The notes below the pieces were generated by a model. It did not search any database, was not told where the DNA came from, and saw nothing but the letters and a program-made list of their open reading frames with translations. A stretch of 63,665 nt of DNA, the filler included, from Nemertoderma westbladi (taxonomy: Eukaryota > Animalia > Xenacoelomorpha): the NCBI GenBank assembly GCA_032718475.1. It is 4 parts of 4 records of this genome, joined end to end, with 100 filler letters (N's around TTAATTAATTAA, not from the genome) between each part and the next. Parts side by side here need not be neighbours in the genome. Positions count along the whole stretch, not along the records: positions 1 to 23,308 come from JAUCBJ010000552.1; positions 23,409 to 44,429 come from JAUCBJ010006504.1; positions 44,530 to 60,165 come from JAUCBJ010000949.1; 1 more part is not named here. The stretch is one strand, 5' to 3'. How positions within the stretch are numbered: the first letter of the stretch is position 1; each line of letters begins with the position of its first letter. Position numbers and translations under genes: made by a program. Shown here one piece after another: positions 6,831-58,753 of the stretch.

Positions 6831-7072
6831 GCAATTAGTGGATCAGCCGATGAAAGATGTTTTATCTCTACCATCTTCAGTAGACCTTGTCGATGCGGCC
6901 ACTACTGAGGTTATCCGAGGTAACAGCTACAATTTAATTATGTTCTACAACAACAAATACATCACTTATGTTAAAAGAGATGGGGGGATAGTTGATAGCG
7001 GAGAGGCGGACAATAAATGGGGAATTTGTCCAATTTCTACGACAACCTCAACCACTACTACAACAACAACCG
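6831..7072 (+). CDS. Hemopexin-repeat/ShKT protein, exon with last blade and Thr-rich linker
   Basis: TTATAG acceptor. Encodes QLVDQPM...LVDAAT...KWGICPISTTTSTTTT. Phase-1 GT donor. Confidence 0.75.
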
Positions 7073-8578: not shown

Positions 8579-8803
8579 TTTCTACAACAACAACAACGTA
8601 CGTGGTCCCGCCATCCTGCGTAGACACCAAGGTTAAAGAGTGCCCCACCTGGGTGTCTATGGGAGGCTGCTTAGTCAATGGTCACGTCGCTCGCAAAAAG
8701 TGCAGAAAATCCTGCAAGACTTGTCTCGGTAAACCTCCAGCAGTATACGAAAAAGGGATATGTGATGATCAGGTTACCTCCTGCAAAATCTGGAAAAATA
8801 TAG
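8579..8803 (+). CDS. Hemopexin-repeat/ShKT protein, exon with one full ShKT domain and the first half of a second
   Basis: TTTTAG acceptor (phase 1). Encodes CVDTKVKECPTWVSMGGC...KKCRKSCKTC, then CDDQVTSCKIWKNI-G, ending at a GTAGGT donor. Confidence 0.82.
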
Positions 8804-9278: not shown

Positions 9279-12200
9279 CCTTCTATAACTTACTTTTTGG
9301 TTAATGTGAAGAAGAGGCCACCATGTACTTTATGTATTCCTTCTGTAACTATTACCTTTATGTTATTGTGAAGAAGAGGCCACCATGTACTTTATGTATT
9401 CCTTCAGTAAATATTACCTTTAGGTTATTGTGAAGAAGAGGCCACCATGTACTTTATGTATTCCTTCTGTAACTATTACTTTTAGGTTATTGTGAAGAAG
9501 AGGCCACCATGTACTTTATGTATTCCTTCTGTAACTATTACCTTTATGTTATTGTGAAGAAGAGGCCACCATGTACTTTATGTATTCCTTCTGTAACTAT
9601 TACTTTTAGGTTATTGTGAAGAAGAGGCCACCATTTACTTTATGTATTCCTTCAGTAACTATTACCTTTATGTTATTGTGAAGAAGAGGCCACCATGTAC
9701 TTTATGTATTCCTTCAGTAAATATTACCTTTAGGTTATTGTGAAGAAGAGGCCACCATGTACATTATGTATTCCTTCAGTAACCATTACTTTTAGGTTAT
9801 TGTGAAGAAGAGGCCACCATGTACTTTATGTATTCCTTCTGTAACTATTACCTTTAGGTTATTGTGAAAAAGAGGCCACCATGTACTTTATGTATTCCTT
9901 CACCTTTATGTTATTGTGAAGAAGAGGCCACCATGTACTTTATGTATTCCTTCAGTAACTATTACTTTTAGGTTATTGTGAAGAAGAGGCCACCATGTAC
10001 TTTATGTATTCCTTCAGTAACTATTACTTTTAGGTTATTGTGAAGAAGAGGCCACCATGTACTTTATGTATTCCTTCTGTAACTATTACTTTTAGGTTAT
10101 TGTGAAGAAGAGGCCACCATGTACTTTATGTATTCCTTCAGTAACTATTACATTTATGTTATTGTGAAGAAGAGGCCACCATGTACTTTATGTATTCCTT
10201 CTGTAACTATTACTTTTAGGTTATTGTGAAGAAGAGGCCACCATGTACTTTATGTATTCCTTCAGTAACTATTACTTTTAGGTTATTGTGAAGAAGAGGC
10301 CACCATGTACTTTATGTATTCCTTCAGTAACTATTACCTTTAGGTTATTGTGAAGAAGAGGCCACCATGTACTTTATGTATTCCTTCAGTAACTATTACC
10401 TTTAGGTTATTGTGAAGAAGAGGCCACCATGTACTTTATGTATTCCTTCTGTAACTATTACTTTTAGGTTATTGTGAAGAAGAGGCCACCATGTACTTTA
10501 TGTATTCCTTCAGTAACTATTACTTTTAGGTTATTGTGAAGAAGAGGCCACCATGTACTTTATGTATTCCTTCTGTAACTATTACCTTTAGGTTATTGTG
10601 AAGAAGAGGCCACCATGTACTTTATGTATTCCTTCAGTAACTATTACTTTTAGGTTATTGTGAAGAAGAGGCCACCATGTACTTTATGTATTCCTTCTGT
10701 AACTATTACCTTTAGGTTATTGTGAAGAAGAGGCCACCATGTACTTTATGTATTCCTTCAGTAACTATTACCTTTAGGTTATTGTGAAGAAGAGGCCACC
10801 ATGTACTTTATGTATTCCTTCTGTAACTATTACTTTTAGGTTATTGTGAAGAAGAGGCCACCATGTACTTTATGTATTCCTTCAGTAACTATTACTTTTA
10901 GGTTATTGTGAAGAAGAGGCCACCATGTACTTTATGTATTCCTTCTGTAACTATTACCTTTAGGTTATTGTGAAGAAGAGGCCACCATGTACTTTATGTA
11001 TTCCTTCTGTAACTATTACCTTTAGGTTATTGTGAAGAAGAGGCCACCATGTACTTTATGTATTCCTTCTGTAACTATTACCTTTAGGTTATTGTGAAGA
11101 AGAGGCCACCATGTACTTTATGTATTCCTTCTAACTATTACCTTTAGGTTATTGTGAAGAAGAGGCCACCATGTACTTTATGTATTCCTTCTGTAACTAT
11201 TACCTTTATGTTATTGTGAAGAAGAGGCCACCATGTACTTTATGTATTCCTTCTGTAACTATTACCTTTATGTTATTGTGAAGAAGAGGCCACCATGTAC
11301 TTTATGTATTCCTTCTGTAACTATTACTTTTAGGTTATTGTGAAGAAGAGGCCACCATGTACTTTATGTATTCCTTCAGTAACTATTACTTTTAGGTTAT
11401 TGTGAAGAAGAGGCCACCATGTACTTTATGTATTCCTTCTGTAACTATTACCTTTAGGTTATTGTGAAGAAGAGGCCACCATGTACTTTATGTATTCCTT
11501 CTGTAACTATTACCTTTAGGTTATTGTGAAGAAGAGGCCACCATGTACTTTATGTATTCCTTCTGTAACTATTACCTTTAGGTTATTGTGAAGAAGAGGC
11601 CACCATGTACTTTATGTATTCCTTCTGTAACTATTACCTTTATGTTATTGTGAAGAAGAGGCCACCATGTACTTTATGTATTCCTTCTGTAACTATTACC
11701 TTTATGTTATTGTGAAGTAGAGGCCACCATGTACTTTATGTATTCCTTCTGTAACTATTACCTTTATGTTATTGTGAAGAAGAGGCCACCATGTACTTTA
11801 TGTATTCCTTCTGTAACTATTACCTTTATGTTATTGTGAAGAAGAGGCCACCATGTACTTTATGTATTCCTTCTGTAACTATTACCTTTATGTTATTATG
11901 AAGAAGAGGCCACCATGTACTTTATGTATTCCTTCTGTAACTATTACCTTTATGTTATTGTGAAGAAGAGGCCACCATGTACTTTATGTATTCCTTCTGT
12001 AACTATTACCTTTATGTTATTGTGAAGTAGAGGCCACCATGTACTTTATGTATTCCTTCTGTAACTATTACCTTTATGTTATTGTGAAGAAGAGGCCACC
12101 ATGTACTTTATGTATTCCTTCTGTAACTATTACCTTTATGTTATTGTGAAGAAGAGGCCACCATGTACTTTATGTATTCCTTCTGTAACTATTACCTTTA

Positions 12201-15200
12201 GGTTATTGTGAAGAAGAGGCCACCATGTACTTTATGTATTCCTTCTGTAACTATTACCTTTAGGTTATTGTGAAGAAGAGGCCACCATGTACTTTATGTA
12301 TTCCTTCTGTAACTATTACCTTTATGTTATTGTGAAGTAGAGGCCACCATGTACTTTATGTATTCCTTCTGTAACTATTACCTTTAAGTTATTGTGAAGA
12401 AGAGGCCACCATGTACTTTATGTATTCCTTCTGTAACTATTACTTTTATGTTATTGTGAAGAAGAGGCCACCTTGTACTTTATGTATTCCTTCTGTAACT
12501 ATTACCTTTAAGTTATTGTGAAGAAGAGGCCACCTTGTACTTTATGTATTCCTTCTGTAACTATTACCTTTATGTTATTGTGAAGAAGAGGCCACCATGT
12601 ACTTTATGTATTCCTTCTGTAACTATTACCTTTATGTTATTGTGAAGTAGAGGCCACCATGTACTTTATGTATTCCTTCTGTAACTATTACCTTTATGTT
12701 ATTGTGAAGTAGAGGCCACCATGTACTTTATGTATTCCTTCTGTAACTATTACCTTTATGTTATTGTGAAGTAGAGGCCACCATGTACTTTATGTATTCC
12801 TTCTGTAACTATTACCTTTAAGTTATTGTGAAGAAGAGGCCACCTTGTACTTTATGTATTCCTTCTGTAACTATTACCTTTATGTTATTGTGAAGAAGAG
12901 GCCACCATGTACGTTATGTATTCCTTCTGTAACTATTACCTTTATGTTATTGTGAAGAAGAGGCCACCATGTGCTTTATGTATTCCTTCTGCAACTATTA
13001 CTTTTATGTTATTGTGAAGAAGAGGCCACCTTGTACTTTATGTATTCCTTCTGTAACTATTACCTTTATGTTATTGTGAAGAAGAGGCCACCATGTACTT
13101 TATGTATTCCTTCTGTAACTATTACCTTTAGGTTATTGTGAAGAAGAGGCCACCATGTACTTTATGTATTCCTTCTGTAACTATTACCTTTATGTTATTG
13201 TGAAGAAGAGGCCACCATGTACTTTATGTATTCATTCTGTAACTATTACCTTTAGGTTATTGTGAAGAAGAGGCCACCATGTACTTTATGTATTCCTTTT
13301 GTAACTATTACCTTTAGGTTATTGTGAAGAAGAGGCCACCATGTACTTTATGTATTCCTTCTGTAACTATTACCTTTAGGTTATTGTGAAGAAGAGGCCA
13401 CCATGTACTTTATGTATTCCTTCTGTAACTATTACCTTTATGTTATTGTGAAGAAGAGGCCACCATGTACTTTATGTATTCCTTCTGTAACTATTACCTT
13501 TAGGTTATTGTGAAGAAGAGGCCACCATGTACTTTATGTATTCCTTTTGTAACTATTACCTTTAGGTTATTGTGAAGAAGAGGCCACCATGTACTTTATG
13601 TATTCCTTCTGTAACTATTACCTTTAGGTTATTGTGAAGAAGAGGCCACCATGTACTTTATGTATTCCTTCTGTAACTATAACCTTTAGGTTATTGTGAA
13701 GAAGAGGCCACCATGTACTTTATGTATTCCTTCTGTAACTATTACCTTTAGGTTATTGTGAAGAAGAGGCCACCATGTACTTTATGTATTCCTTCTGTAA
13801 CTATTACCTTTATGTTATTGTGAAGAAGTGGCCACCATGTACTTTATGTATTCCTTCTGTAACTATTACCTTTATGTTATTGTGAAGAAGAGGCCACCAT
13901 GTACTTTATGTATTCCTTCTGTAACTATTACCTTTAAGTTATTGTGAAGAAGAGGCCACCATGTACTTTATGTATTCCTTCTGTAACTATTACCTTTATG
14001 TTATTGTGAAGAAGAGGCCACCATGTGCTTTATGTATTCCTTCTGTAACTATTACCTTTATGTTATTGTGAAGAAGAGGCCACCATGTATTTTATGTATT
14101 CCTTCTGTAACTATTACCTTTAAGTTATTGTGAAGAAGAGGCCACCATGTACTTTATGTATTCCTTCTGTAACTATTACCTTTATGTTATTGTGAAGTAG
14201 AGGCCACCATGTACTTTATGTATTCCTTCTGTAACTATTACCTTTATGTTATTGTGAAGAAGAGGCCACCATGTACTTTATGTATTCCTTCTGTAACTAT
14301 TACCTTTATGTTATTGTGAAGAAGAGGCCACCATGTACTTTATGTATTCCTTCTGTAACTATTACCTTTAGGTTATTGTGAAGAAGAGGCCACCATGTAC
14401 TTTATGTATTCCTTCTGTAACTATTACCTTTAGGTTATTGTGAAGAAGAGGCCACCATGTACTTTATGTATTCCTTCTGTAACTATTACCTTTATGTTAT
14501 TGTGAAGTAGAGGCCACCATGTACTTTATGTATTCCTTCTGTAACTATTACCTTTAAGTTATTGTGAAGAAGAGGCCACCATGTACTTTATGTATTCCTT
14601 CTGTAACTATTACTTTTATGTTATTGTGAAGAAGAGGCCACCTTGTACTTTATGTATTCCTTCTGTAACTATTACCTTTAAGTTATTGTGAAGAAGAGGC
14701 CACCTTGTACTTTATGTATTCCTTCTGTAACTATTACCTTTATGTTATTGTGAAGAAGAGGCCACCATGTACTTTATGTATTCCTTCTGTAACTATTACC
14801 TTTATGTTATTGTGAAGTAGAGGCCACCATGTACTTTATGTATTCCTTCTGTAACTATTACCTTTATGTTATTGTGAAGTAGAGGCCACCATGTACTTTA
14901 TGTATTCCTTCTGTAACTATTACCTTTATGTTATTGTGAAGTAGAGGCCACCATGTACTTTATGTATTCCTTCTGTAACTATTACCTTTAAGTTATTGTG
15001 AAGAAGAGGCCACCTTGTACTTTATGTATTCCTTCTGTAACTATTACCTTTATGTTATTGTGAAGAAGAGGCCACCATGTACGTTATGTATTCCTTCTGT
15101 AACTATTACCTTTATGTTATTGTGAAGAAGAGGCCACCATGTGCTTTATGTATTCCTTCTGCAACTATTACTTTTATGTTATTGTGAAGAAGAGGCCACC

Positions 15201-39210: not shown

Positions 39211-41692
39211 AACCAATTTGGGATGGGAGGCACCCGAGAGCTATTTTATTCTGTCGGTTACCTGTTAGATGAGGGATGAGGACACACCAAGGACTAATGT
39301 TGCACAATAAAAAAACATAAAAAATAAAATCGTTAGCATATTAAACGATTGAAAATAATCTTATCAATTAACTGTTGGATTTATGGATTTCTCTATAAAC
39401 CCATTATTTTGTACATAGCGAATCTAATATGATACAACCCTCACTCAAGGTTATTGGATAATGACACTATCAATCTTATTTGAAATATATTACCAAATGG
39501 CTGTGACAACTGTTAGTAATTAGCTTACTGCCCATTTCGGAATTTGACACAAAACTTGGAAGCATGCCATTAGGTTGCCTGTCAAAAAATCCTGCAGATT
39601 TTGTTCCAATTTAAATGGCAAATTAAGGCGACGTGAAGGAACCGAAAGTTGTTCCTAATGACCCAGCAGTGTAGGAACTAACTGCCTTTATATTGGATTG
39701 AGCAGTGATCACTGATCATTTACGTGGTCGTTGTAAATTAATTTACTGATAACAACCTCAGGCTTATTCCTCTCTGCAGCTCATATGGTGTCAGTTGAAG
39801 TTGCTGATTGATTAGGGCGTGTCGATAGTTGGAGATACGTGAGTGTGGGGGAATGAGGTACTAGAGTTTACGGAATGTGAAATACGTCAGGGATAAAAAG
39901 TATTATCTACTAGCATTTCGTTTTTCCAAGTTCAAACACTTATGCAAATTGCCCGGGCCAGTAATTTACTCCTCGTCCCCAATGCCAATATTATATAGTC
40001 AGTCTTTATGGATGAGTGCTAAAAAAAATTTCAATCGTGCTAAGCACGTTTTTGCTTCGTGTTCAGTTAGTTACATAAAACATAAGTCATGTTTTGTCAC
40101 TATGATTATTTTTGGCATAGGGGCGCAAATTGACCGCAAGTTAAATAACTGATAACACTGAGCTTCTGTAACCTGCACCTTTCACTAAAAGCATAGTTGG
40201 TGTTTGTAATTTTGCTTCATAAACTCATTTTCGAAAATAAAAAATATTTTGAAAATTATCACGTATGGCAATTCCGGTAACCCATGTTTAACATCTGTAA
40301 CAATTAGTTGTCCAAAAGTATCTATTACCCTTTGTGGAAAAAAAAGTATTAGATTTATCATACTATACTAATAAATAATTTATTGGCATAATTTAATCGT
40401 TAATCATAAACTGACAAATTTATAATTGTATCGAAACGATAGATAATTGATTAGTCTTTCTTCGGGGAAGTGTATGCACGTTACTTTCCACACATTCCAC
40501 ATTCATATTATATTTATTGTACATAAATTAATATATTACAGTTAGTTACGGTATGTAAGAATGTGTTATATAATTAATAACGTCAAACTATTGCCAACTT
40601 TGGCTATTAACTGTGGCGGCGCAGGATAAACCACTGGCTCAGACACTGAACCCACTCCCTGATCTAATTATTGTGTAGTAATCATTACAACCATACATAC
40701 ATAACGTTACGCATTCCAAAAGATTTTAAGAACATGTTAAGCGACATTATATGGCCTACCCTACGGTTTACTAATACATATTATTTAATTTATTTGTTTA
40801 TTATGTTGACATATTTCAGCCGTACAATAAGGTTAAGGCGTATTATGTTTACTTATCTTCTTATCTTACTAGGTTGCATTTTTTTGGTGAATCATTAAAA
40901 TCTGGTAGGTGCTCTGTATTAAAATCGTAGAAATATTATCGAGTAAACATTAAATATTAGGATATAGAGTGGGATTCCATTTATGTTCTATTGTAATTTC
41001 GTTGAAACTGCAGTACAGAAATTGAATTTAAACGTTCTGTCCGTCATTTACAATGGCATGCATTAATTCGAACAACAAATAAAGAACCCTTTGCGCAATA
41101 CAATATTGTTTGGTTTCCACCGGAATTCTTTTTGTTTACGTTTATAGTTAGTTATATTCACTGACATCGTCACTGCGATTGGGTTAGTTTTAATACATAT
41201 TAATAATTGTGCTGTATTGCTGATATTATTGTTGCAATGGAAAGCGATATATGTCCAGACGGATAATTCAAACTATATTATATTGGGCTTAATAATAACT
41301 GATTAGTAGTTACATATCTTTAGACAGTTTAGTCTGCTCTGCTATTGATATCCAATATAATTTAATTTGTTTTCTGACTCATAATGATAGGAAAGTCTTT
41401 AAAAAATTGTTAGTTACCTTTTTATTTCAAATATTGCTTTAGTTTATAGTTTACGCATTATTAAACATGTGGGAATTGAAGAGAAAATTAGCCCGACTTT
41501 AGTAGAAATTACCTGCATTTTATGTTATATTTCATAGGTTTAACACTTATATAATGCTTATTGGGAATGGGAATTTAATTTGTTTTTTTTTATAGTTTTT
41601 ATTTATTTTGTAAATTAAACATTAATTTATTCTTTGTCTTGTGGCAATACAAAACATAATTTACACTGGTTTTGCTATGAATATAATATTAG

Positions 41693-42151
41693 CCAATCCG
41701 GAAGACCTGCCTGACTCACCCGGACCCCGTAAACAGTTCCAGATGTCTCGGCGAAGTAGCAGTCCGGCCCAAGCCTTGCGGTACATCGAAACCGAACTGC
41801 AGAAGAAAAAATACCGTTCGGCCGCGCAATTTGCAGATGCGCTGCCCGCGCCGGTGTTTAAATCGATCTGCAACGAAATGCCGATGAGGGAGATCTTCAA
41901 AGACCTCCCCGTGAGCGCCGTGTTCCTACATACTATGCTGACGCGGGCGCTCTATCTCGGGTGTAAGTCCTGCTTCCCCAGTGCGGAGTTGTGTAAACTC
42001 GCCGATCAATTGGTTCTGTTTCTCTCGTTGGAGGAGGACAATTCCTTCCCTGCGCTTGTCGACGACGATCATCTGAAAGCCTGTGGAAATCTAATGGGCT
42101 TGTTGATTCGTTGTGAGGACAGTGTAGGGAAACATCTAGCGGAACAGTTAG
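41693..42151 (+). CDS. Exon of an unidentified, probably helical protein
   Basis: ATATTAG acceptor and G|GTAAGG donor. GC-rich open frame NPEDLPDSPG...KHLAEQL. Translation may start at the ATG in MSRRSSSP. Confidence 0.7.
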
Positions 42152-44429
42152 GTAAGGTAATAATATCGGGAAACATCTAGTGGAACAGTTAGGTAAGGTA
42201 ATAATGTCGGGAAACATCTAGCGGAACAGTTAGGTAAGGTAATAATGTCGGGAAACATCTAGCGGAACAGTTAGGTAAGGTAATAATGTCGTGAAACATC
42301 TAGCGGAACAGTTAGGTAAGGTAATAATGTCGGGAAACATCTAGCGGAACAGTTAGGTAAGGTAATAATGTCGGGAAACATCTAGCGGAACAGTTAGGTA
42401 AGGTAATAATGTCGGGAAACATCTAGCGGAACAGTTAGGTAAGGTAATAATGTCGGGAAACATCTAGCGGAACAGTTAGGTAAGGTAATAATGTCGGGAA
42501 ACATCTAGCGGAACAGTTAGGTAAGGTAATAATGTCGGGAAACATCTAGCGGAACAGTTAGGTAAGGTAATAATAATGTCGTGAAACATCTAGCGGAACA
42601 GTTAGGTAAGGTAATAATATCGGGAAACATCTAGCGGAACAGTTAGGTAAGGTAATAATGTCGGGAAACATCTAGCGGAACAGTTAGGTAAGGTAATAAT
42701 AATGTCGTGAAACATCTAGCGGAACAGTTAGGTAAGGTAATAATATCGGGAAACATCTAGCGGAACAGTTAGGTAAGGTAATAATGTCGTGAAACATCTA
42801 GCGGAACAGTTAGGTAAGGTAATAATGTCGGGAAACATCTAGCGGAACAGTTAGGTAAGGTAATAATGTCGTGAAACATCTAGCGGAACAGTTAGGTAAG
42901 GTAATAATATCGGGAAACATCTAGCGGAACAGTTAGGTAAGGTAATAATGTCGGGAAACATCTAGCGGAACAGTTAGGTAAGGTAATAATGTCGTGAAAC
43001 ATCTAGCGGAACAGTTAGGTAAGGTAATAATAATGTCGTGAAACATCTAGCGGAACAGTTAGGTAAGGTAATAATATCGGGAAACATCTAGCGGAACAGT
43101 TAGGTAAGGTAATAATGTCGTGAAACATCTAGCGGAACAGTTAGGTAAGGTAATAATGTCGGGAAACATCTAGCGGAACAGTTAGGTAAGGTAATAATGT
43201 CGTGAAACATCTAGCGGAACAGTTAGGTAAGGTAATAATATCGGGAATCATCTAGCGGAACAGTTAGGTAAGGTAATAATGTCGGGAAACATCTAGCGGA
43301 ACAGTTAGGTAAGGTAATAATGTCGTGAAACATCTAGCGGAACAGTTAGGTAAGGTAATAATGTCGGGAAACATCTAGCGGAACAGTTAGGTAAGGTAAT
43401 AATGTCGGGAAACATCTAGCGGAACAGTTAGGTAAGGTAATAATGTCGTGAAACATCTAGCGGAACAGTTAGGTAAGGTAATAATGTCGTGAAACATCTA
43501 GCGGAACAGTTAGGTAAGGTAATAATGTCGGGAAACATCTAGCGGAACAGTTAGGTAAGATAATTTTGTTTGGAGACATCTAGCGGAAACAGTTTGGATA
43601 ATATTGTCGGGAGACATCTAGCGGAATAGTTTAGTTAGATAATAATGTCAGGATATATGTAGCGGCACAGTTAGGTAAGATAAGATCGTTAGGTAAGACA
43701 TTATTTGTAGGGAGACATCTAGCGGATGGTTTAGGTAAGATACTAATGTCGAGAAACATCTTGCGGAATAGTTTAGTTAGATAATAAATAATGTCGGGAG
43801 ACATCTAGCGGAACAGTTAGGTGAGGAAATAAATACTGCCTGGAGACATCTAGCGAAATAGTTTAGTTAGATAATAATGTCGGGAGACATCTAGCGGAAC
43901 AGTTAGGTAAGGTAATAAATACTGCCTGGAGACATCTAGTTGACGGGATAGGTTAGATAGTAATGTCGGGAGACATCTAGCGGAACAGTTAGGTAAGGTA
44001 ATAAATACTGCCTGGAGACATCTAGTGGACGGGATAGGTTAGATAGTAATGTCGGGAGACATCTAGCGGAACAGTTAGGTAAGGTAATAAATACTGCCTG
44101 GAGACATCTAGTGGACGGGATAGGTTAGATAGTAATGTCGGGAGACATCTAGCGGAACAGTTAGGTAAGGTAATAAATACTGCCTGGAGACATCTAGTGG
44201 ACGGGATAGGTTAGATAGTAATGTCGGGAGACATCTAGTGGAACAGTTAGGTAAGGTAATAAATACTGCCTGGAGACATCTAGCGGAACAGTTAGGTAAG
44301 GTAATAAATACTGCCTGGAGACATCTAGTGGACGGGATAGGTTAGATAGTAATGTCGGGAGACATCTAGTGGAACAGTTAGGTAAGGTAATAAATACTGC
44401 CTGGAGACATCTAGTGGACTACTAGGATC
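42127..44429 (+). repeat. 41-bp satellite (last 25 nt of exon + donor), changing distally to an 86-bp dimer
   Basis: Unit GGGAAACATCTAGCGGAACAGTTAG|GTAAGGTAATAATGTC; period 41 (42127 to 42168). Period 86 at 43961, 44047 and 44133. Confidence 0.96.
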
Positions 44430-44529
44430 NNNNNNNNNNNNNNNNNNNNNNNNNNNNNNNNNNNNNNNNNNNNTTAATTAATTAANNNNNNNNNNNNNNN
44501 NNNNNNNNNNNNNNNNNNNNNNNNNNNNN
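44430..44529. other. Artificial contig linker
   Basis: N-run with TTAATTAATTAA. Confidence 0.97.
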
Positions 44530-45509
44530 TGTATTTATATAGTGGTTCAACTGGTTATAAATTATAGGTAACTTAATATTGTATTCTTATATTAATTTGT
44601 ATATAAGATGATGTTTTCATTTGGTATTATAAATGTCCTAAGATACTCAATTATAAGTGTGTTTGCACAATCATTTCATTATTTATTAGACCTTTCATAA
44701 ATAATATATAAACGAAACCTAAGATACGAGATTCGAACCGGATGTCTCGCGGGCACTAATGAATGTCCCAAGACCTTTCCTCATAATTAGGGACGCTTTC
44801 TAGAAGTGATAGCAAGAATTATGTTATTTTAACAGCAATTAAAGCAATACACGTTGTACCTGGGAGGGAACCTAGTTAGAACATCGTGTCTGGTCTTGTT
44901 TATCTTGAACTGTCTCCTAGCCTCGGATATTTAATCATAATTCAAGCAATTTAATTTAAATGTCCTCCTTTAATCCTCTTTGAAGATGCTCGGGGCTCTT
45001 TTAGAAATTATAATTAAATCATTTAAATGGTCAGCACAGCATCGTTAGGCAATAGTTGAGAATAGTTGAGATTAATAACCCATTATGGAAAGCGTGGTCG
45101 TAAATATTTTATGGCGATTAAGGGAAATCGGACAACCCTGCAGTTTGTCTACGGTATGTAATACTGATACTCACCGTCTCAGCTCAACCACTTCAACGAT
45201 TTTATGTTATCAGTTGAAAGTTTGCCGCCGGTGCGCTGCTGTTCCTACTACTGAGTGTCTGCCATCGCAGTTTATTGTGTCGAAAGTCGGAAAGTGGCGA
45301 TTTTTCTCGAACCTCGAACCTTGTCAATCCTACTTTATGCATACTAATTATGATACGTATTCCTTTGCATGATATATTAAATGTTCGATCTATATTTTTG
45401 AGTTACATCCATCGGTTTTTTGTGGCTTGATTACTTATAAAATGTGCTAGAAATTTTAATCATGTATTTTTCCGCGGATGTCAAAAGTGGTGCTATTACC
45501 AAATTTTGA

Positions 45510-48500: not shown

Positions 48501-49048
48501 TGTAGTGGTGAGGGTCCTGGTGTTTATTTAGCCAGTGAAAATCCGTCAGTTTTGTAGTGGTGAGGGTCCTGGTGTTTAGCCAGTGAAAATCCGTCAGTTT
48601 TGTAGTGGTGAGGGTCCTGGTGTTTATTTAGCCAGTGAAAATCCGCCAGTTTTGTAGTGGTGAGGGTCATGGTGTTTATTTAGCCAGTGAAAATCCGCCA
48701 GTTTTGTAGTGGTGAGGGTCCTGGTGTTTATTTATCCAGTGGAAATCCGCCAGTTTTGTAGTGGTGAGGGTCCTGGTGTTTATTTAGCCAGTGAAAATCC
48801 GCCAGTTTTGTAGTGGTGAGGATCCTGGTGTTTATTTAGCCAGTGAAAATCCGCCAGTTTTGTAGTGGTGAGGGTCCTGGTGTTTATTTAGCCAGTGAAA
48901 ATCCGCCAGTTTTGTAGTGGTGAGGGTCCTGGTGTTTATTTAGCCAGTGAAAATCCGCCAGTTTTGTAGTGGTGAGGGTCCTGGTGTTTATTTAGCCAGT
49001 GAAAATCCGCCAGTTTTGTAGTGGTGAGGGTCCTGGTGTTTTGCCAGG
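45510..49048. repeat. 48/52-bp satellite, ~70 copies
   Basis: Unit GCCAGTGAAAATCCGTCAGTTTTGTAGTGGTGAGGGTCCTGGTGTTTA, with or without TTTA. Confidence 0.96.
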
Positions 49049-49878
49049 GAAGTTTAGTGATTTGCCTTAGATTCACCAGTGGTACTGAGGGTGTAGGTAG
49101 GTTAGCGCTGCTACAGGGGTGAAGTTTTACACTTTGATATGCGATGGTGCCTGGGTGTGGCACTGCTTTTAGGTTGCAGCTGGGGTGCATATATGTTGGG
49201 GGTGATTACGATAAGACAGGCTTATAAGCAACTATATTTCAAATAATCAAAAATATAATCAGACATCAGATTATACGAAACAACTGAGTATGCTAAAATA
49301 TATTTTCAATACGAGTCATTTTAATTGGTGTTTATATGCAGTGTAGTAGTTCCAATTTGGTAATCGTTCGTTTCAATTAATTCCTCGAGCTTCTTAAATA
49401 TCTAATCCCACAGACAAATACTTTTGTCCAGTTACAAATGTAAGTACCAAGTAACAAAACTTCAGTTTGATTAATAGCCTGTAAGATGTATCACCCGTGT
49501 TTCCATAGTAACACTTCACAAGTGTCTCTTATATTGTTGATTGTTCTGTTTGTAATTGATTACTTATAAATTAATAAAAACGGGAAATATAACAGGAAAT
49601 ATAAAAGGTCTATCCTATCAGTGTTCAATTTGTTAAGTTTCCATGGAAACTAATGCGGTCCTTCGAAAAACTTTTATGTAATTTCCAATTAATTGCAAAA
49701 AATATGTCAAAGTTTATATAAAATACATTAAAATAAATTTTGATGTTATCATGTATTAAATAAAGCTATGCTACTACGTCATAATATAATGGAAATTTAT
49801 AAGTCAACAAAGTATTTAATCTACTTTAATTTACGCGTAATAATCTCTAAATATTTATTTAATTATTTTCTTTCTTAG

Positions 49879-50059
49879 ATTTGGGTGGAGAGCCAATACA
49901 ACTCCTCCGGTTATTATACCATATATGGGGATGATTCCCTACACCAAGATGAATTCCAAGCCAGATTGTCTGTAGGAGGAGGTGATATGGATACCATGTT
50001 TTCTAGAACGGGATGTTTGGGGTTCATAAGGAGAACTGATATGACCCAATCTGATGGAG
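49879..50059 (+). CDS. DIP2: Disco-interacting protein 2 homolog, exon
   Basis: TCTTAG acceptor. Encodes IWVESQYNSSGYYTIYGDDSL...FSRTGCLGFIRRTDMTQSDG, ending at a G|GTGGGT donor. Confidence 0.9.
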
Positions 50060-52735
50060 GTGGGTGTGTTTGGTTTGACAAGCAGTACTAATATGACCCA
50101 ATCTGGTGGAGGGGGTGTGTTTGGTTTGACAAGCAGTACTGATATGACCCAATCTGGTGGAGGTGGGTGTGTTTGGTTTGACAAGCAGTACTGATATGAC
50201 CCAATCTGGTGGAGGTGGGTGTGTTTGGTTTCACAAGCAGTGCTGATATGACCCAATCTGGTGGAGGTGGGTGTGTTTGGTTTGACAAGCAGTACTGTTA
50301 TTACCCAATCTGATAGAGGTGGGTGTGTTTGGTTTGACAAGCAGTACTGATATGACCCAATCTGGTGGAGGTGGGTGTGTTTGGTTTGACAAGCAGTACT
50401 GATGTGACCCAATCTGATGGAGGTGGGTGTGTTTGGTTTGACGAGCAGTACTGATGTGACCCAATCTGATGGAAGTGGGTGTGTTTGGTTTGACAAGCAG
50501 TACTGATATGACCCAATCTGGTGGAGGTGGGTGTGTTTGGTTTGACAAGCAGTACTGTTATTACCCAATCTGATAGAGGTGGGTGTGTTTGGTTTCACAA
50601 GCAGTACTGATATGACCCAATCTGGTGGAGGTGGGTGTGTTTGGTTTGGCAAGCAGTACTGATATGACCCAATCTGATAGAGGTGGGTGTGTTTGGTTTG
50701 ACGAGCAGTACTGATGTGACCCAATCTGATGGAAGTGGGTGTGTTTGGTTTGACGAGCAGTACTGATATGACCCAATCTGATAGAGGTGCGTGTGTTTGG
50801 TTTGACAAGCAGTACTGTTATTACCCAATCTGATAGAGGTGGGTGTGTTTGGTTTGGCAAGCAGTACTGATATGACCCAATCTGATAGAGGTGCGTGTGT
50901 TTGGTTTGACGAGCAGTACTGATTGACCCAATCTGGTGGATGTGCGTGTGTTTGGTTTGACAAGCAGTACTGTTATTACCCAATCTGATAGAGGTGTGTG
51001 TATTTGGTTTGACAAGCAGTACTGATATGACCCAATCTGATGGAGGTGGGTGTGTTTGGTTTGACAAGCAGTACTGATATGACCCAATCTGGTGGATGTG
51101 CGTGTGTTTGGTTTGACAAGCAGTACTGTTATTACCCAATCTGATAGAGGTGGGTGTGTTTGGTTTGGCAAGCAGTACTGATATGACCCAATCTGGTGGA
51201 GGTGGGTGTGTTTGGGTTAGAGGTGCGTGTGTTTGGTTTGACAAGCAGTACTGTTATTACCCAATCTGATAGAGGTGTGTGTATTTGGTTTGACAAGCAG
51301 TACTGATATGACCCAATCTGATGGAGGTGGGTGTGTTTGGTTTGACAAGCAGTACTGATATGACCCAATCTGGTGGATGTGCGTGTGTTTGGTTTGACAA
51401 GCAGTACTGTTATTACCCAATCTGATAGAGGTGGGTGTGTTTGGTTTGGCAAGCAGTACTGATATGACCCAATCTGGTGGAGGTGGGTGTGTTTGGGTTA
51501 GAGGTGCGTGTGTTTGGTTTGACAAGCAGTACTGATATGACCCAATCTGGTGGAGGTGGGTGTGTTTGGTTTGACAAGTAGTACTGATATGACCCAATCT
51601 GGTGTAGGTGCGTGTGGTTTGTTTGACAAGCAGTACTGATATGACCCAATCTGATAGAGGTGCGTGTGGTTTGTCTGACAAGCAGTACTGATATGACCCA
51701 ATCTGATAGAGGTGGGTGTGTTTGGTTTGACAAGCAGTACTGTTATTACCCAATCTGGTGTAGGTGCGTGTGTTTGGTTTGACAAGCAATACTGTTATTA
51801 CCCAATCTGATAGAGGTGGGTATGTCTGGTTTGACAAGCAGTACTGACTGATATTACCCAATCTGGTGTAGGTGCGTGTGGTTTGTTTGACAAGCAGTAC
51901 TGCTATGACCCAATCTGATAGAGGTGCGTGAGTTTGGTTTAGAGGTGCGTGTGTTTGGTTTGACAAGCAGTACTGATATGACCCAATCTGGTGGAGGTGG
52001 GTGTGTTTGGTTTGACAAGTAGTACTGATATGACCCAATCTGGTGTAGGTGCGTGTGGTTTGTTTGACAAGCAGTACTGATATGACCCAATCTGATAGAG
52101 GTGGGTGTGTTTGGTTTGACAAGCAGTACTGTTATTACCCAATCTGGTGTAGGTGCGTGTGGTTTGTTTGACAAGCAGTACTGATATGACCCAAACTGAT
52201 AGAGGTGCGTGTGTTTGGTTTAGAGGTGCGTGTATTTGGTTTGACGGCAGTACTGATATGACCCAATCTGATGGAGGTGGGTATGTCTGGTTTGACAAGC
52301 AGTACTGACTGATATTACCCAATCTGGTGTAGGTGCGTGTGGTTTGTTTGACAAGCAGTACTGATATGACCCAATCTGATAGAGGTGCGTGTGTTTGGTT
52401 TAGAGGTGCGTGTGTTTGGTTTGACAAGCAGTACTGATATGACCCAATCTGGTGGAGGTGGGTGTGTTTGGTTTGACAAGTAGTACTGATATGACCCAAT
52501 CTGGTGTAGGTGCGTGTGTTTGGTTGACAAGCAGTACTGATGTGACCCAATTTGATGGAGGTGGGTGTGTTTGGTTTGACAAGCAGTACTGATATGACCC
52601 AATCTGGTGTAGGTGCGTGTGTTTGGTTTGACAAGTAGTACTGATATGACCCAATCTGGTGTAGGTGCGTGTGTTTGGTTGACAAGCAGTACTGATGTGA
52701 CCCAATTTGATGGAGGTGGGTGTGTTTGGTTGAAA
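50035..52735 (+). repeat. 52-bp satellite (last 25 nt of the DIP2 exon + donor), ~50 copies
   Basis: Unit ACTGATATGACCCAATCTGATGGAG|GTGGGTGTGTTTGGTTTGACAAGCAGT; period 52 (50035 to 50087). Confidence 0.96.
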
Positions 52736-54009
52736 TGCTGAACTGAATATGACTCGAAGTGATGGGGGTGGCTAGTGTGGGTTTTAGTTTTGAAGAAGGG
52801 ACCTTATATTTCGGAGTGTGTGATGGAGAGTGGGTTTGGTTTGATAAAGGGGACTGAGGAAGGTTGACTGGTGGGTGTAAGACCACAATTTTTTCTCAGT
52901 TATGTAGTCCAAAAACAAGTGGGTCTGAGACCAAACTGGTCTTTAATAATAATTAAATAAATGTTTTTCGAAGTAATTGCCTAGTTTTAGCGCTACTTTA
53001 GCAAAATTTAGTAGTTCAGAGTCAAACAATTATTGGGTTAGCCTATTTCTGCAATAGGACAGATAAATTATTTATTTTACATTTGCAATATTCCTTCGAC
53101 CGTTTATTAACGAAAATCGTAAATAAAATGACTCGATAATATTGATAATGTTGTAATAATACGTAATTGTATACTTAAATTGGTGCATTTTTGTTGCTTA
53201 ATTATTTAATAAAACATAGAACGAAATCGTGTTACAAAAGAAATTGAACTTATTTTACTAGGCCTATAATAGTGCTTCCATAGTTAATGCGTTTCCGTAG
53301 TTACTTCAACTCCATGATGCTGACTTACTCAATGTTAAATAATTTAGTGTTCTCGAATATTTATTACGTAACTAGAGAGCCGCTTAACTACATAAACCAA
53401 TATTGGATATTGAGTTCCGTTTTGGAGTTCGCTTTGTAAACACTAAAGTTGCAATAACTTTAGAGAGTATGAAAGGATTTTGCTCAAATTACGTGCGAAC
53501 CTTTTCTACTTCGATGCTTTTCAACACATGTAATAAAATTTAAGAAATTCTATCCAAATATTTTCACGTTTTCTTATATAACTTTTTCCGTCGGGATAAA
53601 AGTAAAATCACTACAATCATGGAAAAATATTCGGGCAAAATAGTAACAATTTAAGAATAAAATTTATTTTATTGTTACTATTATTATTGAAATTTAATGT
53701 ATAATTTATAATGTAATTTATAATGCTGTATAATTTTTCTGTATCAATTTGAATGAATGAATTTGTAAACAATTGCATGAATATACTGTTATCATTAAAA
53801 CTAGTAAAAACTTTTAACACGAAAAATATATTCTATATGAATTAGGAAACTTAATCATTCGTATTATATACGATACGAAAGTGAATTGTTTTTTTGATAC
53901 AAGACTAAATTCGATACGAAGATATTCTAAGATGCGACATAACTAATCGCATCCTCTCCCAGAGTCTAATTAATCGTATTTACTATAAACCTTCCTCCGT
54001 CTCTCCCAG

Positions 54010-54133
54010 ATCGTCACGACGCCCTCTTTGTTGTCGGGGCCCTCGATGAGGCCATGATGTTACGCGGTATGCGTTATCATCCAATCGACATCGAGACTTC
54101 CGTTCATCGCTCACATAAGAATGTTATCGAAAG
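54010..54133 (+). CDS. DIP2: DIP2 exon
   Basis: CCCAG acceptor and GTAAGT donor. Encodes DRHDALFVVGALDEAMMLRGMRYHPIDIETSV. Phases fit both neighbouring exons. Confidence 0.93.
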
Positions 54134-55296
54134 GTAAGTCAGTTCATGTGTCTATCTACCTAACCGATGTATCTATTTTACATCCATAAACATTTTTTAA
54201 ATATAAGGTATTATAAAAAAAAGGTTCTAAAACAAATAATTTTGTTCTAACCATTTTCAACCAAGCAAACAGTCGGGTGAAAACGGAGGCGACTCTAAGG
54301 CTCCTCTTACGATAGCTGCTACCCGGAAAAAGTTTCCACCCAATAATGTATATTCGTGCTACTGTTATTTAAAGTAATATTTTATTTTTCTGAGCTGTGT
54401 TTAGTGCTAATAAATCAAAATATTACCTAATATTATTAAATATTCAAAATATTACCTAATATTATTAAATATTAGATTAGGTGGGAATTACCGGTAACCT
54501 TTTTCAAGTCATATTGATAAGCAGATGCGGTATAATGCAGCAGATACAACCTTTACATAATGAGATATAAGCAGTATAGCCTTAGATCAGCTCATCAGCT
54601 TCATATGATGGAATTCCGCCACCTGGTGAGATTATTTGGGATTGGAATGTGCTGTTACTATGCCATCGGACCATCATCGGTGCGGATATATATAAAGTTA
54701 TACCATACGACGTACAATATTGAGTATTTATTACTCATTGTGGATTCCTGTTGGACTTTCCCTCCATGACCAGGTTGATCCTTAAAAGCTGCAGGGGTTA
54801 GTTGAGGTATAATTAGGTTTCTAGTCATCAATGAAAAAAAAACATACTTGTGATGCCGCCCGTTTATACAATGGTTTTATACATTGAGTTCCCATAGCGT
54901 AAACTCACCAGCCATTAGCAATCCAAATCCGCACCTTTGCATAATGAATTCATCATATTATCGGAACCGGATGCATTATTATTGTGTCAGTAAATATTAA
55001 GTTAACTGAGTCTTGACCAGGTTTCGTAACTGATGGAAGTACGACATTCAGTGAATCATTGATGGATGGGGGCGCTGCAATAAACTACAGCACTGACAGG
55101 TTGAAAACACGCTCATAATCCCGAACACACAATAATCTCCATAAATCACAGCCAACGGGTCAGGATGAGGGTTTAGAGGCATTACTTTAAAAATAAATTA
55201 TAAACAGACTGATAGAACAATTTCCAATACATATTTATGTGTTGTTACGCTATTACTCATTGTAATATATTGTAATTGTAATATATCTATTGTTAA

Positions 55297-55515
55297 TACC
55301 CCGTATCAATGTTAAATTCTCAATTTAGGAAAAGGGGCAGGTTACAGTGGCACGTTATTTTAACCAAAACAATAAACTAAACACAATAGAACAGGTTACA
55401 GTTTTATTTTTGAGAGTTATCAGCTGTTATTTGCGTCGAATTTCTCCTGGAGAGGGATGAATTTTTATTACGTGCAGTCCCCCCCCCCCCCCCCCCCCCC
55501 CTATCTGCCTAATTG
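55297..55515 (+). mobile_element. Dispersed repeat family A copy
   Basis: Collinear with ~3290-3535, including the poly-C tract. Confidence 0.78.
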
Positions 55516-55744
55516 GAATCATATTTCTCTTAATATTTGTGTTTCGGGAATTTTTGACATTCTGCGCGCATACTAATCTCTTCCACACTTCAATATATAC
55601 CCCGTCGGCCCGTATACATAATGAGGTACCAGTAAAGAAGGTGGAAACATTGTGGAGCAGACTCCACTACTATCCACGCATTGGATTGCAATTTGGCTGC
55701 ATCTTTCTGGGACGCCGCTCCATCTATATTTCTAAAGTTTGCCG

Positions 55745-56034
55745 TAGAGGGCGCACTAGTTATTATCTTTATTTAGAGGGCGCACTAGTTATTATCTTTA
55801 TTTAGAGCGCGCACTAGTTATTATCTTTATTTAGAGGGCGCACTAGTTATTATCTTTATTTAGAGGGCGCACTAGTTATTATCTTTATTTAGAGGGCGCA
55901 CTAGTTATTATCTTTATTTAGAGGGCGCACTAGTTATTATCTTTATTTAGAGGGCGCACTAGTTATTATCTTTATTTAGAGCGCGCACTAGTTATTATCT
56001 TTATTTAGAGGGCGCACTAGTTATTATCTTTATT
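55745..56034. repeat. 29-bp minisatellite, ~10 copies
   Basis: Unit TAGAGGGCGCACTAGTTATTATCTTTATT. Confidence 0.93.
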
Positions 56035-58050
56035 TATTGCTATTAATTCGTGAAATGGACGTCAGTTTTTTTACTACCAGTTTAACGCCAACTGAACACA
56101 TAACTCTATAAGTTTCGTATATCTAATGGATTAGTCCACTTTCTTGGCGTATATTTTCTAATGCGCGAAGGCTCGGCTACATTCAGGAAAATATTTAATC
56201 GGTAACTCTTCCACATTGGAAGTTCGTTTTCTGATAACGTTACATGAAGGAGACGAAATATGACAAAATCTGGGGACACTCAGTTATTGAGGTGCTTCAC
56301 GCTTTCGTAAGGAAGGTACTTGGTTTTTGTCACACTTTCCTACTTTAAGTCACTGAACGAAGTCCGGACAATGTTTTGGGCACTTTTAGTGAGAATATTA
56401 TCATATAGTATATTGCATTGGATTGCCATCTTATTATGAGGCTCATCCAGTTTCCGATGTATTGTCTTAAACAGAGAAGCAGAGCTTCTAACTTCTCATC
56501 GTCGATGAGACGTTGGATATTGGTACTCTCTGGTTGCACCTGTTTCCACTCCTATCGGATACCCTGGAGGTTTACTTCTCTGGAAGGCGGAGCTCGATAA
56601 AGTCGGCGTTTTCGGAGGTCGGAATTATTTAATTCGACGAGGAATGGGCGAAACCAAAGCGACGAAAGCAATCGAAACGGTAACCAGCGAAGTAACCAAT
56701 GCGGCAATGAATAATTAGGAGACATCGTAGAATAAATTGTGTTTCACCTTGTTGATTAATCCAATTACCACGATTACAGTTAGATGTTAGAACCTTACCC
56801 ACAGGTTATAGCCTATGAATAACTGTTACTGGAATAAGTGATAGCTTTTCCACCCACTCAATAAAACCATCCCAACAGAGTTGATAGAATTACACGCCGA
56901 TTGTATTTCCCTTTCATTCATCCCCTTTCACCTTCCTTTCATCTATTAATACATTTTTAGCACCAATGAACCGCGTTTTTCATCCTAAATTGTAAGTAGC
57001 CTTACTGAGTATTTTGATTACATTTTCATAATCTTACTAGTTGTAGATGCTACTTGTAGCTCTACACCAAGTCATAACTACATCGGGTGATGGATTTAGC
57101 ACTCAAACCTTCACAGAAAACACAATGTTTAGTGAGAATCAAAATATATCAACAAGTTTAACGTCCATGGTGCCACTGAATAAGTAATTTTGTTTGAAAC
57201 TTAATTCATCTGGTTGAACGTGAACGTGAACGTGAATCGTGTATGTTATTTTTTTACTTATACACTTTATTTTCATCGGTGATGATAATGTAGTAATTCA
57301 GTATGATGTTTGGCATGAGCCTTGCCAATACACTCATATAAGTTGGTTGTTGGTCAGGGCACTCAGACAAATCCTTCAGATTCTTTCGATTATTATGCTT
57401 GCTTTTCTGACAGGTCAGTATACTGCAGATCCTCTTAGACAACCGCACCCTGTACGATTAGTTAAAGTCACAGACTAATAATAATAATAATATATTTATA
57501 GGGCGCCTCGCCTATACAAATATAAAATCAATCGCCCATTGGATACAAAGAACAACGACATTGCAGAAAGGCAGATTAATTGTTATAGAATCTAAATTGT
57601 AGATATTATTGAGAACCTGAGAACACTTGAAATATAAATTAAAATATAGTAATTAGAGGAATCGCTTAGCGAAGAAATATGACAAAGTTTTGAGAGTAAC
57701 TTTGGGTATGATGACAAAAATCCCATGCTCCGACATGTTGGTGGTCCGTTGGCCCAGTAGTCCAGAGGCCCCCACCCCAAATCAAATCTTTAGCAAGTCT
57801 CGGATATTTTTTGAGAATATACGATTAATTTATACATTCAGATATTATGTATATACTTAGTAACTTTTAACACCCGGCTGTTCTCTGTAACATAATTAGG
57901 GCAGGGCCTACCAAGTCAAATATCAATTACTATGATGATGATGGCCGTCATTATTCCTCATTATCCACCCCCGACACAACAGTACAGAGGTACAGTGCAT
58001 GGCTTGCTGTACCTTAATAATCAATTAGGGAGAGTTGGATCGGGTTCAGC

Positions 58051-58199
58051 ATTACTTAAAGGTTATTCTTTAATTAATTATACGCATTTGTCCTGACGCC
58101 CTGACTAACTGACTTTAATACTGACTAATCAGTCAGTATTAAAGTCAGTTAGTCAGGGACAAATGCGTATAATTAATTAAAGAATAACCTTTAAGTAAT
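58051..58199. repeat. ~150-bp near-perfect palindrome
   Basis: ATTACTTAAAGGTTATTCTTTAATTAATTATACGCATTTGTCC...CTGACT-AATC-AGTCAG...GGACAAATGCGTATAATTAATTAAAGAATAACCTTTAAGTAAT. Confidence 0.93.
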
Positions 58200-58490
58200 C
58201 ACTAACGTATTGACACGGATTCTATAACACTATCCTATTGATACCGATTCTATAATACTAACTTATTTACACGGATTCTATAACACTAACTTATTTACAT
58301 GGATTCTATAACACTATCCTATTGACACCGATTCTATAAAACTAACTAATTGACACGGATTCTATAACACTAACTTATTTACGCGGATTCTATAACACTA
58401 ACTTATTTACATGGATTCTATAACACTATCTTATTTACACGGATTCTATAACACTAACTAATTGACACGGATTCTATAACACTAACTTAT
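58200..58490 (+). repeat. 28-bp minisatellite carrying the branch-point motif CACTAAC, ~10.5 copies
   Basis: Unit CACTAACTTATTTACACGGATTCTATAA. The last copy runs into TTGTTTCGCAG, the acceptor of the DIP2 terminal exon. Confidence 0.92.
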
Positions 58491-58500
58491 TGTTTCGCAG

Positions 58501-58753
58501 CGCCACATTCACTTCGACAAATCTTCTCGTTGTTGTGGTTGAGTTGCTAGGCGACGAGAATCTCGCCCTCGATCTCGTTCCCGCCGTTACCAAATCCGTT
58601 CTGGAGGACCACCATCTGGTCGTGGGGGTCGTGGTAGTGGTGGATCCCGGACTAATTCCTATTAACAGTCGCGGTGAGAAGCAACGCATGTATCTGCGAG
58701 ACGCTTTCCTTGCCGACCAATTAGACGCGATATACGTCGGTTACAACATGTGA
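58501..58753 (+). CDS. DIP2: DIP2 terminal exon
   Basis: Encodes ATFTSTNLLVVVVEL...IPINSRGEKQRMYLRDAFLADQLDAIYVGYNM*, the characteristic DIP2 C-terminus. Confidence 0.95.

What the first reader, a model, noticed from the sequence alone, without database searches (positions are those of the whole stretch)
9279..58490. Intronic satellites repeatedly seeded on the host gene's own splice signals
Seen: four unrelated arrays in three genes on three contigs each amplify a splice element at an exon edge. These are acceptor + exon (62 bp, ShK gene), exon end + donor (41 bp; 52 bp in DIP2), and the branch point (28 bp, DIP2). The donor arrays match the real junction closely and decay away from it. Inference: this recurrence suggests either a splicing- or transcription-coupled amplification process, or a way of tolerating or using dozens to hundreds of decoy splice sites. 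Other arrays here (473, 40, 48/52, 29 bp) are not junction-linked, so the pattern is partial.
Basis: partly seen in the sequence, partly recalled or inferred. Interest (0 to 1): 0.8.

Follow-up and report, generated by a model that had tools for sequence, protein, structure and literature searches.

The report
Splice-junction "mirage" repeats in three genes
In three genes of an animal, short pieces at exon borders are copied head-to-tail 10 to 205 times into the neighbouring introns, a repeat type already known from lancelets and humans; a likely RNA sample uses the original splice signal at the one exon end tested, so the copies are likely tolerated by-products, and why they crowd at exon edges is still open.

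Summary
The observation largely holds. Three of nine arrays span a splice junction: a 41-bp donor (53 copies), a 52-bp DIP2 donor (50) and a 62-bp acceptor plus ShK-exon start (205). A fourth (28 bp) ends 8 nt before a DIP2 acceptor; its branch-point role is untested. A run that behaves as spliced RNA leaves the exon exactly at the first 41-bp donor. DNA runs of two samples hold the 62-bp array, and one holds the 41-bp array, so neither is only an assembly artefact. Both donor arrays decay away from the junction. Correction: the rest of the ShK exon is not on the contig.

Uniform seeding predicts 0.66 arrays within 10 nt of a junction, against 4 seen (P about 0.001). The window was picked for the pattern, and no genome was available.

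This is a known kind: lancelet "mirages" and the human F7 and CBS minisatellites. The scan noted it many times elsewhere in this genome and in others. Best reading: ordinary tandem duplication, tolerated because the outermost true site is used, and kept because the exon anchors one copy. Splicing-coupled birth is not excluded (about 20%).

The parts
3668..8803 (+). Four exons (3,668-3,827; 6,376-6,543; 6,831-7,072; 8,579-8,803) of a gene with a hemopexin-like piece, a Thr-rich linker and ShK domains
   Evidence: One open frame across the inferred junctions. Pfam ShK E 8e-8; Hemopexin E 0.004, below its cut-off. X2 contig covers 8,578-8,800 and not the intron behind it.
9279..21996 (+). 62-bp array, 205 copies: about 15 nt of acceptor-like end plus about 47 nt of the next exon's start; 89 copies keep the AG; higher-order blocks
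   Evidence: Splice from 8,803 into a unit-like sequence inferred. The 15/47 split is inferred from the Cys spacing of the reading.
21995..23245 (.). Repeat-like element that cuts the array off one base short of the acceptor AG position; holds an internal 450-bp direct repeat
   Evidence: Sequence and self-BLAST. The element's ends are judged by eye.
41596..42151 (+). Probable first exon of an unidentified gene (158-aa frame from the ATG at 41,677)
   Evidence: X2 record 4, 0 differences. No family or homologue found.
42123..44429 (+). 41-bp donor array (25-29 nt exon end plus 12-16 nt intron start), at least 53 copies, running to the contig end; distal part is an 86-bp two-unit repeat
   Evidence: First donor used in X2; X4 holds the unit at high depth.
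49879..50059 (+). DIP2 exon whose end seeds the 52-bp array
   Evidence: tblastn to DIP2 homologues, E about 7e-18
50035..52890 (+). 52-bp donor array, about 50 copies plus worn copies out to about 52,890; most of the unit appears to derive from the exon end
   Evidence: The intron-side 27 nt match the exon one period upstream at 15 of 27, p about 0.004 against shuffles.
54010..54133 (+). Middle DIP2 exon; no array at either edge
58051..58199 (.). 149-bp palindrome (MITE-like, inferred) abutting the far end of the 28-bp array
   Evidence: Self-BLAST
58200..58492 (+). 28-bp intronic array, 10 copies, 7 with CTAAC, ending 8 nt before the acceptor
   Evidence: Branch-point use not tested.
58501..58753 (+). 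Last DIP2 coding exon
   Evidence: Pfam PF23024 E 4e-13; about 80% identity to animal DIP2 proteins
26668..26739 (+). Weak 2-copy, 35-bp duplication across a tectonic donor (26,689)
   Evidence: TRF, 78% matches. Not significant in my probe test, z 0.7.
29558..29607 (+). Weak 2-copy, about 32-bp duplication across a tectonic donor (29,573)
   Evidence: Probe test z 4.7. Not listed by TRF.
30007..30410 (+). 40-bp AT-rich array starting 42 nt behind a tectonic donor; does not contain the junction

Best explanation
These arrays are 'mirage' minisatellites: tandem repeats whose unit spans or abuts an exon-intron border, likely born by ordinary tandem duplication in a repeat-prone genome and likely kept because they do little harm. 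Shown: three units contain the host gene's own junction; the extra copies lie on the intron side in the two donor arrays; identity is highest at the exon and decays away from it; a likely RNA run leaves the exon at the first 41-bp donor. Inferred: (1) a short duplication that overlaps an exon edge puts its spare copy into the intron and leaves the reading frame intact, whereas one inside an exon is purged; (2) the spliceosome takes the first donor it meets, and for acceptor arrays the copy that opens a complete exon; (3) unequal exchange and slippage then expand the array; (4) the exon pins one copy under selection, so the array can only be deleted from one side and keeps being homogenised against that copy. 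Step 4 would make junction arrays outlive free intronic ones and give the excess at exon edges without any splicing-coupled birth.
For: Anatomy and polarity. The junction-side copy is 98-100% identical to the consensus in the 41-, 52- and 28-bp arrays, while the far ends fall to 62-79% (52 bp) or diverge into a compound unit (41 bp). First donor used, and no X2 contig laid past 42,151. The 52-bp array looks old and renewed: worn copies reach about 52,890, and its intron-side half is only 15 of 27 like the exon stretch it seems to derive from, yet the 25 exon nt of near copies match today's exon at 23-25 of 25 in most copies. The genome makes arrays readily: 43% of the window, and 5 of 9 arrays have no junction in or beside the unit. 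Precedent: F7, with first-site-only use shown by mutagenesis (PMC1557585); lancelet mirages that do not disturb splicing and evolve in concert (PMC3087553, PMC3902484).
Against: The anchoring step is untested. A gradient also appears in the non-junction 28-bp array at 37.9 kb (quarter means 0.92, 0.87, 0.90, 0.85), so polarity is not unique to junction arrays. PMC3087553 reports cluster boundary units excluded from homogenisation in lancelet globin mirages, which is not what anchoring predicts. The 62-bp array is not attached to a complete exon on this contig, has a flat identity profile, and keeps its AG mostly at the 5' end (30 of the first 40 copies, 59 of the other 165). Only one donor was tested with reads, in one run listed as 'DNA?' and held as contigs, which drop rare isoforms. 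Human 6-16 and CBS arrays do use nearby pseudo-sites (PMC1557585, Introduction). An excess of 4 against 0.66 is large for a survival effect alone.
Confidence: 0.58

Rival explanations
1. Duplications are born preferentially at splice junctions, for example through polymerase pausing, R-loops or RNA-templated repair where the spliceosome assembles, and then expand as ordinary minisatellites.
For: In-window excess: 3 of 9 arrays span a junction against 0.54 expected (P 0.007), and 4 of 9 lie within 10 nt against 0.66 (P 0.001). Two further weak 2-copy duplications cross tectonic donors: 2 of 21 unpicked junctions against 5 of 394 control positions, P 0.044, counting the TRF-only case. GC content does not separate junction from other arrays. 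PMC3087553 calls the generating mechanism unclear.
Against: By my probe test alone it is 1 of 21 against 5 of 394, P 0.27, and the control pool excluded the large arrays. Breakpoints differ between arrays, with no shared motif or register. No direct evidence of an RNA step was obtained. Unchecked scan notes on an octopod and an annelid report no genome-wide excess.
Confidence: 0.2
2. There is no real preference. Arrays arise everywhere, a few hit junctions, and this window was singled out because several did.
For: The test is post hoc: about 1 window in 800 of this make-up would show 4 of 9 by chance. Without the self-defined ShK site, P is 0.058 for spanning and 0.01 for within 10 nt; with twice as many hidden sites it is 0.20 and 0.06. 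No genome was held.
Against: The excess survives several of the nulls. The scan's notes list about 20 further loci in this genome out of 78 windows, some with several junction arrays per gene; these are unchecked, selected notes and count only as leads.
Confidence: 0.13
3. The decoys are used: stepwise (recursive) removal of the intron through AG|GT units, or copy number tuning splicing or expression.
For: All three spanning units read AG|GT at the junction, against 7 of 11 donors and 1 of 14 acceptors in the window. The GT is kept in 53 of 53 and 49 of 50 donor copies.
Against: The donor units lack a pyrimidine tract before their AG (sequence). 116 of 205 acceptor copies have lost the AG. The only spliced form seen at the 41-bp site uses copy 1. 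Many other unit columns are equally invariant under concerted evolution.
Confidence: 0.06
4. The arrays are assembly artefacts.
For: The 41-bp array runs into a contig end and the 473-bp array begins at one; lengths of such arrays are often wrong. The 52- and 28-bp DIP2 arrays were not checked with reads.
Against: Copies carry structured variants and higher-order blocks. DNA runs of two samples hold the 62-bp unit at summed depth 4,759-59,866 against about 20-60 in flanks, with contigs crossing the left edge. X4 holds a 41-bp copy-to-copy contig at depth 596 against 26.
Confidence: 0.03

Closest known systems
Lancelet 'mirage' minisatellites (globins BflGb6 and BflGb9, Adh3, troponin C, PGBD5). 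Seen: 6 passages of PMC3087553 and 4 passages of PMC3902484; Adh3 and troponin C only as cited there.
   Same: Tandem copies spanning 5' or 3' exon-intron borders; units of 10-160 bp; several loci in one genome; many but not all copies keep the splice signals; splicing reported normal; origin called unclear.
   Different: Globin and PGBD5 cases have 2-7 copies, against 50-205 here (up to 12.7 kb). There the boundary units were excluded from homogenisation; here the junction-side copy matches the consensus.
Human donor-spanning minisatellites: F7 intron 7 (37 bp, 5-9 copies), with 6-16, CBS intron 13, lamin B2 and PDGF intron 4 as cited. Seen: abstract, Introduction and Discussion of PMC1557585.
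   Same: First monomer spans the exon-intron border, and only the most upstream donor is used in F7, as seen here at the 41-bp site.
   Different: 5-25 copies and isolated loci in a large genome; 6-16 and CBS also use the nearest pseudo-sites, which could not be excluded here.
CBS 31-bp VNTR c.1444_1467+7(16_21) and the 68-bp intron 7/exon 8 junction duplication. Seen: 12 passages of PMC2630376.
   Same: By its coordinates the VNTR unit is 24 nt exon plus 7 nt intron, like the 41-bp unit. The 68-bp case duplicates an intron/exon-start junction, and the distal site is used.
   Different: The acceptor-side case is a single duplication, not an array.
Variable tandem repeats at exon-intron boundaries in human segmental duplications (PMC2812944, 11 passages), and intron gain by tandem duplication of AG|GT sites (PMC4974935 and PMC3443670, search listing only; model also in PMC3087553).
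   Same: Tandem repeats at boundaries that multiply AG|GT sites.
   Different: Those create new introns from exonic repeats. Here the DIP2 acceptors are unique sequence unlike the units, so the introns likely predate the arrays (intron ancestry not tested).

Membership tests
Mirage / junction-spanning minisatellite | Repeat unit spans an authentic exon-intron border of the host gene | tested here: met
   41-bp (spliced contig), 52-bp (homology), 62-bp (inferred splice into a unit-like sequence; true exon not located)
Mirage / junction-spanning minisatellite | Same feature for the 28-bp DIP2 array | tested here: not met
   Wholly intronic, ends 8 nt before the acceptor. It is junction-adjacent, not a mirage in the strict sense.
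Mirage / junction-spanning minisatellite | Head-to-tail copies of a 10-160 bp unit, many keeping the splice signal | tested here: met
   53 of 53, 49 of 50 and 89 of 205 copies
Mirage / junction-spanning minisatellite | Normal mRNA splicing at the authentic site | tested here: inconclusive
   Met at 1 of 4 arrays.
Mirage / junction-spanning minisatellite | Length instability between haplotypes or cells | not testable with these tools
   Only contigs were held, and their depth is not copy number.
Recursive splicing (ratchet-point) array | AG|GT sites with an upstream pyrimidine tract, used stepwise | tested here: inconclusive
   AG|GT present in all three spanning units; tract absent in the donor units; use needs nascent RNA. 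The definition of ratchet points is recalled.
Intron gained by tandem duplication | Both intron ends derive from the duplicated exonic AG|GT segment | tested here: not met
   The DIP2 acceptor at 54,009 is unique sequence and the next exon starts AT, not GT.

The most novel reading that the evidence does not exclude
In this animal, tandem duplications are born preferentially at splice junctions through a splicing- or transcription-coupled DNA lesion and then grow to hundreds of copies. Intron size would then be driven by the genes' own splice signals, and the genome would be a natural series for finding how one true site is chosen among hundreds of identical ones.
Probability: 0.2. Interest if true: 0.75.

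Novelty: new member of a known kind. Interest (0 to 1): 0.4.

Why it matters
The repeat type is known, but the lancelet paper leaves its origin open, and none of my nine paper searches (open-access library only) returned a genome-wide test of whether such arrays favour junctions. A genome this rich in them makes two questions testable. The first is birth bias against survival bias at exon edges. The second is how the first-donor rule holds up against 50 or more near-identical decoys. In practice such arrays also break assemblies and can mislead gene models.

Tried and rejected
No whole genome was held, so the genome-wide test could not be run.

No holder was listed as RNA among 8 runs. X2 is treated as RNA only because its contigs stop at splice sites and it covers 9 of 30 and 18 of 30 bins. 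Only two stretches were laid (6,200-9,465 and 39,150-42,235); the DIP2 contig was not.

Fifth-array idea: the 28-bp array at 37,892-39,208 has donor-like sites on the minus strand behind a possible exon at 39,209-39,270. X2 does not cover that stretch.

X2 depth on the first 62-bp copies (66 and 7 in the last two bins, against 23.6 for the exon contig) is far below the DNA runs. This would fit an intronic array rather than a 12-kb 3' UTR, but contig depth is a poor measure and I do not count it as evidence.

48/52-bp unit as a relic of the missing upstream DIP2 exon: p 0.066 against shuffles. 28-bp variant against the DIP2 C-terminus: p 0.03, one of 8 such tests, and rejected. 29-bp unit: no match. 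The 473-bp unit has no long open frame.

GC contrast (exons 47%, non-coding 35%) does not separate junction from other arrays. No plausible remainder of the ShK exon was found in three forward frames of 21,991-23,308: two short Cys-x-x-Cys hits lie inside the repeat-like element. The 24-aa reading of one 62-bp copy has no Pfam hit.

The gene at 41.6 kb stays unidentified (Atlas hits 0.75-0.77 are below significance). The PDB search with a DIP2 exon gave nothing. PMC10078293 (12 passages) concerns human repeats that alter splicing and gave no enrichment figure for junction-spanning units in the passages seen. No supplements were read; Additional file 4 of PMC3087553 may hold copy-level detail.
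Full report
Setting. The window joins four contigs: 1-23,308, 23,409-44,429, 44,530-60,165 and 60,266-63,665. No whole genome is held. The organism is an animal distant from annotated proteomes: WIPI4 best hits are about 50% identical and the DIP2 C-terminus about 80%. Nine arrays of 250 bp or more fill 43% of the window. I placed 25 splice sites by eye, from homology and from reads. The inferred exon chains of the ShK-domain gene, tectonic and DIP2 each read in one open frame.

41-bp array. It begins 29 nt inside an exon and runs to the contig end. All 53 copies found keep the GT, and identity to the junction copy falls with distance (rho -0.68). Run X2 is listed as 'DNA?' but behaves as spliced RNA. 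One 843-nt contig matches 41,596-42,151 with no difference and continues in unrelated sequence exactly at the first GT; none of the 4 X2 records laid passes 42,151. DNA run X4 spans 39,176-42,156 and holds a copy-to-copy contig at depth 596 against 26. X4 may be the window's source sample.

52-bp array. DIP2 homologues match 49,879-50,061, 54,012-54,131 and 58,502-58,750 contiguously, which fixes the junctions. The array starts 25 nt inside the first of these exons. 49 of 50 copies keep the GT, with rho -0.40, and worn copies extend to about 52,890. The intron-side 27 nt of the unit match the exon one period upstream at 15 of 27 (p about 0.004). So the unit is mostly an old copy of the exon's last 50 or so bases, whose 3' half still matches the present exon. 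The same test is negative for the 41-bp unit. Neither DIP2 array was checked with reads.

62-bp array. It has 205 copies, 34 variants among the 204 split, and higher-order blocks. An X2 contig of 355 nt covers 8,578-8,800 and has 31 nt left at that end. The same depth (23.6) appears at 9,422-9,423, and the bin mean equals 31 nt at that depth. This indicates a splice from 8,803 to the AG|GT of a unit-like sequence. Only 89 of 205 copies keep the AG: 30 of the first 40 and 59 of the other 165. The array ends one base short of the AG position, at a repeat-like element, and no remainder of the exon was found on the contig. Read as a terminal exon, a copy stops after 15-44 codons; the commonest form (57 of 89) stops at the next copy's TAG and leaves the second ShK-like domain with 4 cysteines against 6 in the first. 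Either the true exon lies beyond the contig or the array has replaced it; this is unresolved. DNA runs X1 and X3 (one sample) and X4 hold the unit at summed depth 4,759-59,866 against about 20-60 in flanks.

28-bp array. It has 10 copies, 7 with CTAAC, and ends 8 nt before the acceptor, with the putative branch A 16 nt upstream. YTRAY motifs occur 9-45 nt upstream of 9 of 13 acceptors, so the motif is unremarkable. There is no significant gradient and no junction in the unit.

More than chance? With arrays collapsed to one unit (37,169 nt, 25 sites), 3 of 9 span a site against 0.54 expected (P 0.007), and 4 of 9 lie within 10 nt against 0.66 (P 0.001). Dropping the self-defined ShK site gives P 0.058 and 0.01; doubling the sites as well gives 0.20 and 0.06. 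About 1 in 800 such windows would pass by chance, and this one was chosen for the pattern. The excess is likely real but is not established by this window.

How it works. Shown: junction-containing units, spare copies on the intron side, polarity at both donor arrays, and first-donor use at one site. Inferred: ordinary tandem duplication; survival of those that leave the exon intact; tolerance through use of the outermost true site, as shown by mutagenesis for F7 (PMC1557585, Discussion); growth by unequal exchange; and longer life because one copy is pinned by the exon. Against this last step, a non-junction array also shows a gradient, and lancelet boundary units were excluded from homogenisation (PMC3087553). 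I put this reading at 0.58, splicing-coupled birth at 0.2, no real bias at 0.13, functional use at 0.06 and artefact at 0.03.

Known context. PMC1557585 lists F7, 6-16, CBS, lamin B2 and PDGF as minisatellites whose first monomer spans an exon-intron border. PMC3087553 names the lancelet cases 'mirages', suggests that they may be general in that group, and calls their origin unclear; PMC3902484 adds PGBD5. I took the term and these two papers from scan notes and read the passages myself. The scan's unchecked notes report the same kind at about 20 other loci of this genome, with up to 1,300 copies, and in other genomes; two of the latter report no genome-wide excess. These notes are leads, not support.

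Verdict. Real, and a new member of a known kind, larger and denser than the published cases I read. The open and testable part is why these arrays crowd at exon edges. Interest 0.4.

Noticed in passing
window 7,114-8,137: A very high-copy element in the ShK-gene intron is missing from contigs of runs X1 and X3, which join 7,113 to 8,136: a polymorphic insertion.
   Followed up: partly
window 27,919-29,004 (-): A 362-aa open frame lies antisense inside a tectonic intron; no Pfam match.
   Followed up: partly
Its unit is in X2 at depth 946, so it may be transcribed here or elsewhere; no junction link found.
   Followed up: partly
window 41,596-42,151: Probable first exon of an expressed gene with no family or homologue found.
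   Followed up: partly
window 4,082-6,019 (-): A 646-aa frame with a weak reverse-transcriptase match (Pfam RVT_1, E 8e-5), likely a non-LTR retrotransposon in the ShK-gene intron.
   Followed up: no
window 58,051-58,199; 35,525-35,679; 27,366-27,504: Three palindromes of about 150 bp; the first directly abuts the 28-bp DIP2 array.
   Followed up: no
window 3,271-3,500; 25,617-25,828; 55,293-55,501; shorter pieces near 32,405 and 37,021: A dispersed element of about 200 bp, in two places ending in a long poly-C run; one copy abuts the 473-bp array.
   Followed up: no
window 9,145-9,278 and 21,995-23,245: The 62-bp array is flanked on both sides by repeat-like elements. Their ends resemble Helitron/Helentron-type elements (resemblance recalled, not tested).
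   Followed up: no
X4 record 11: A 671-nt contig carries about one 41-bp unit between unrelated flanks: either the far end of the array or a dispersed copy.
   Followed up: no
window 48,939-49,205 (-): An 89-aa open frame runs from unique sequence into the 48/52-bp array; no Pfam match.
   Followed up: partly
window 23,409-24,296 and 62,376-63,001: A WIPI4/WDR45 3' exon and a fibrinogen-domain exon, with no arrays at their edges.
   Followed up: no
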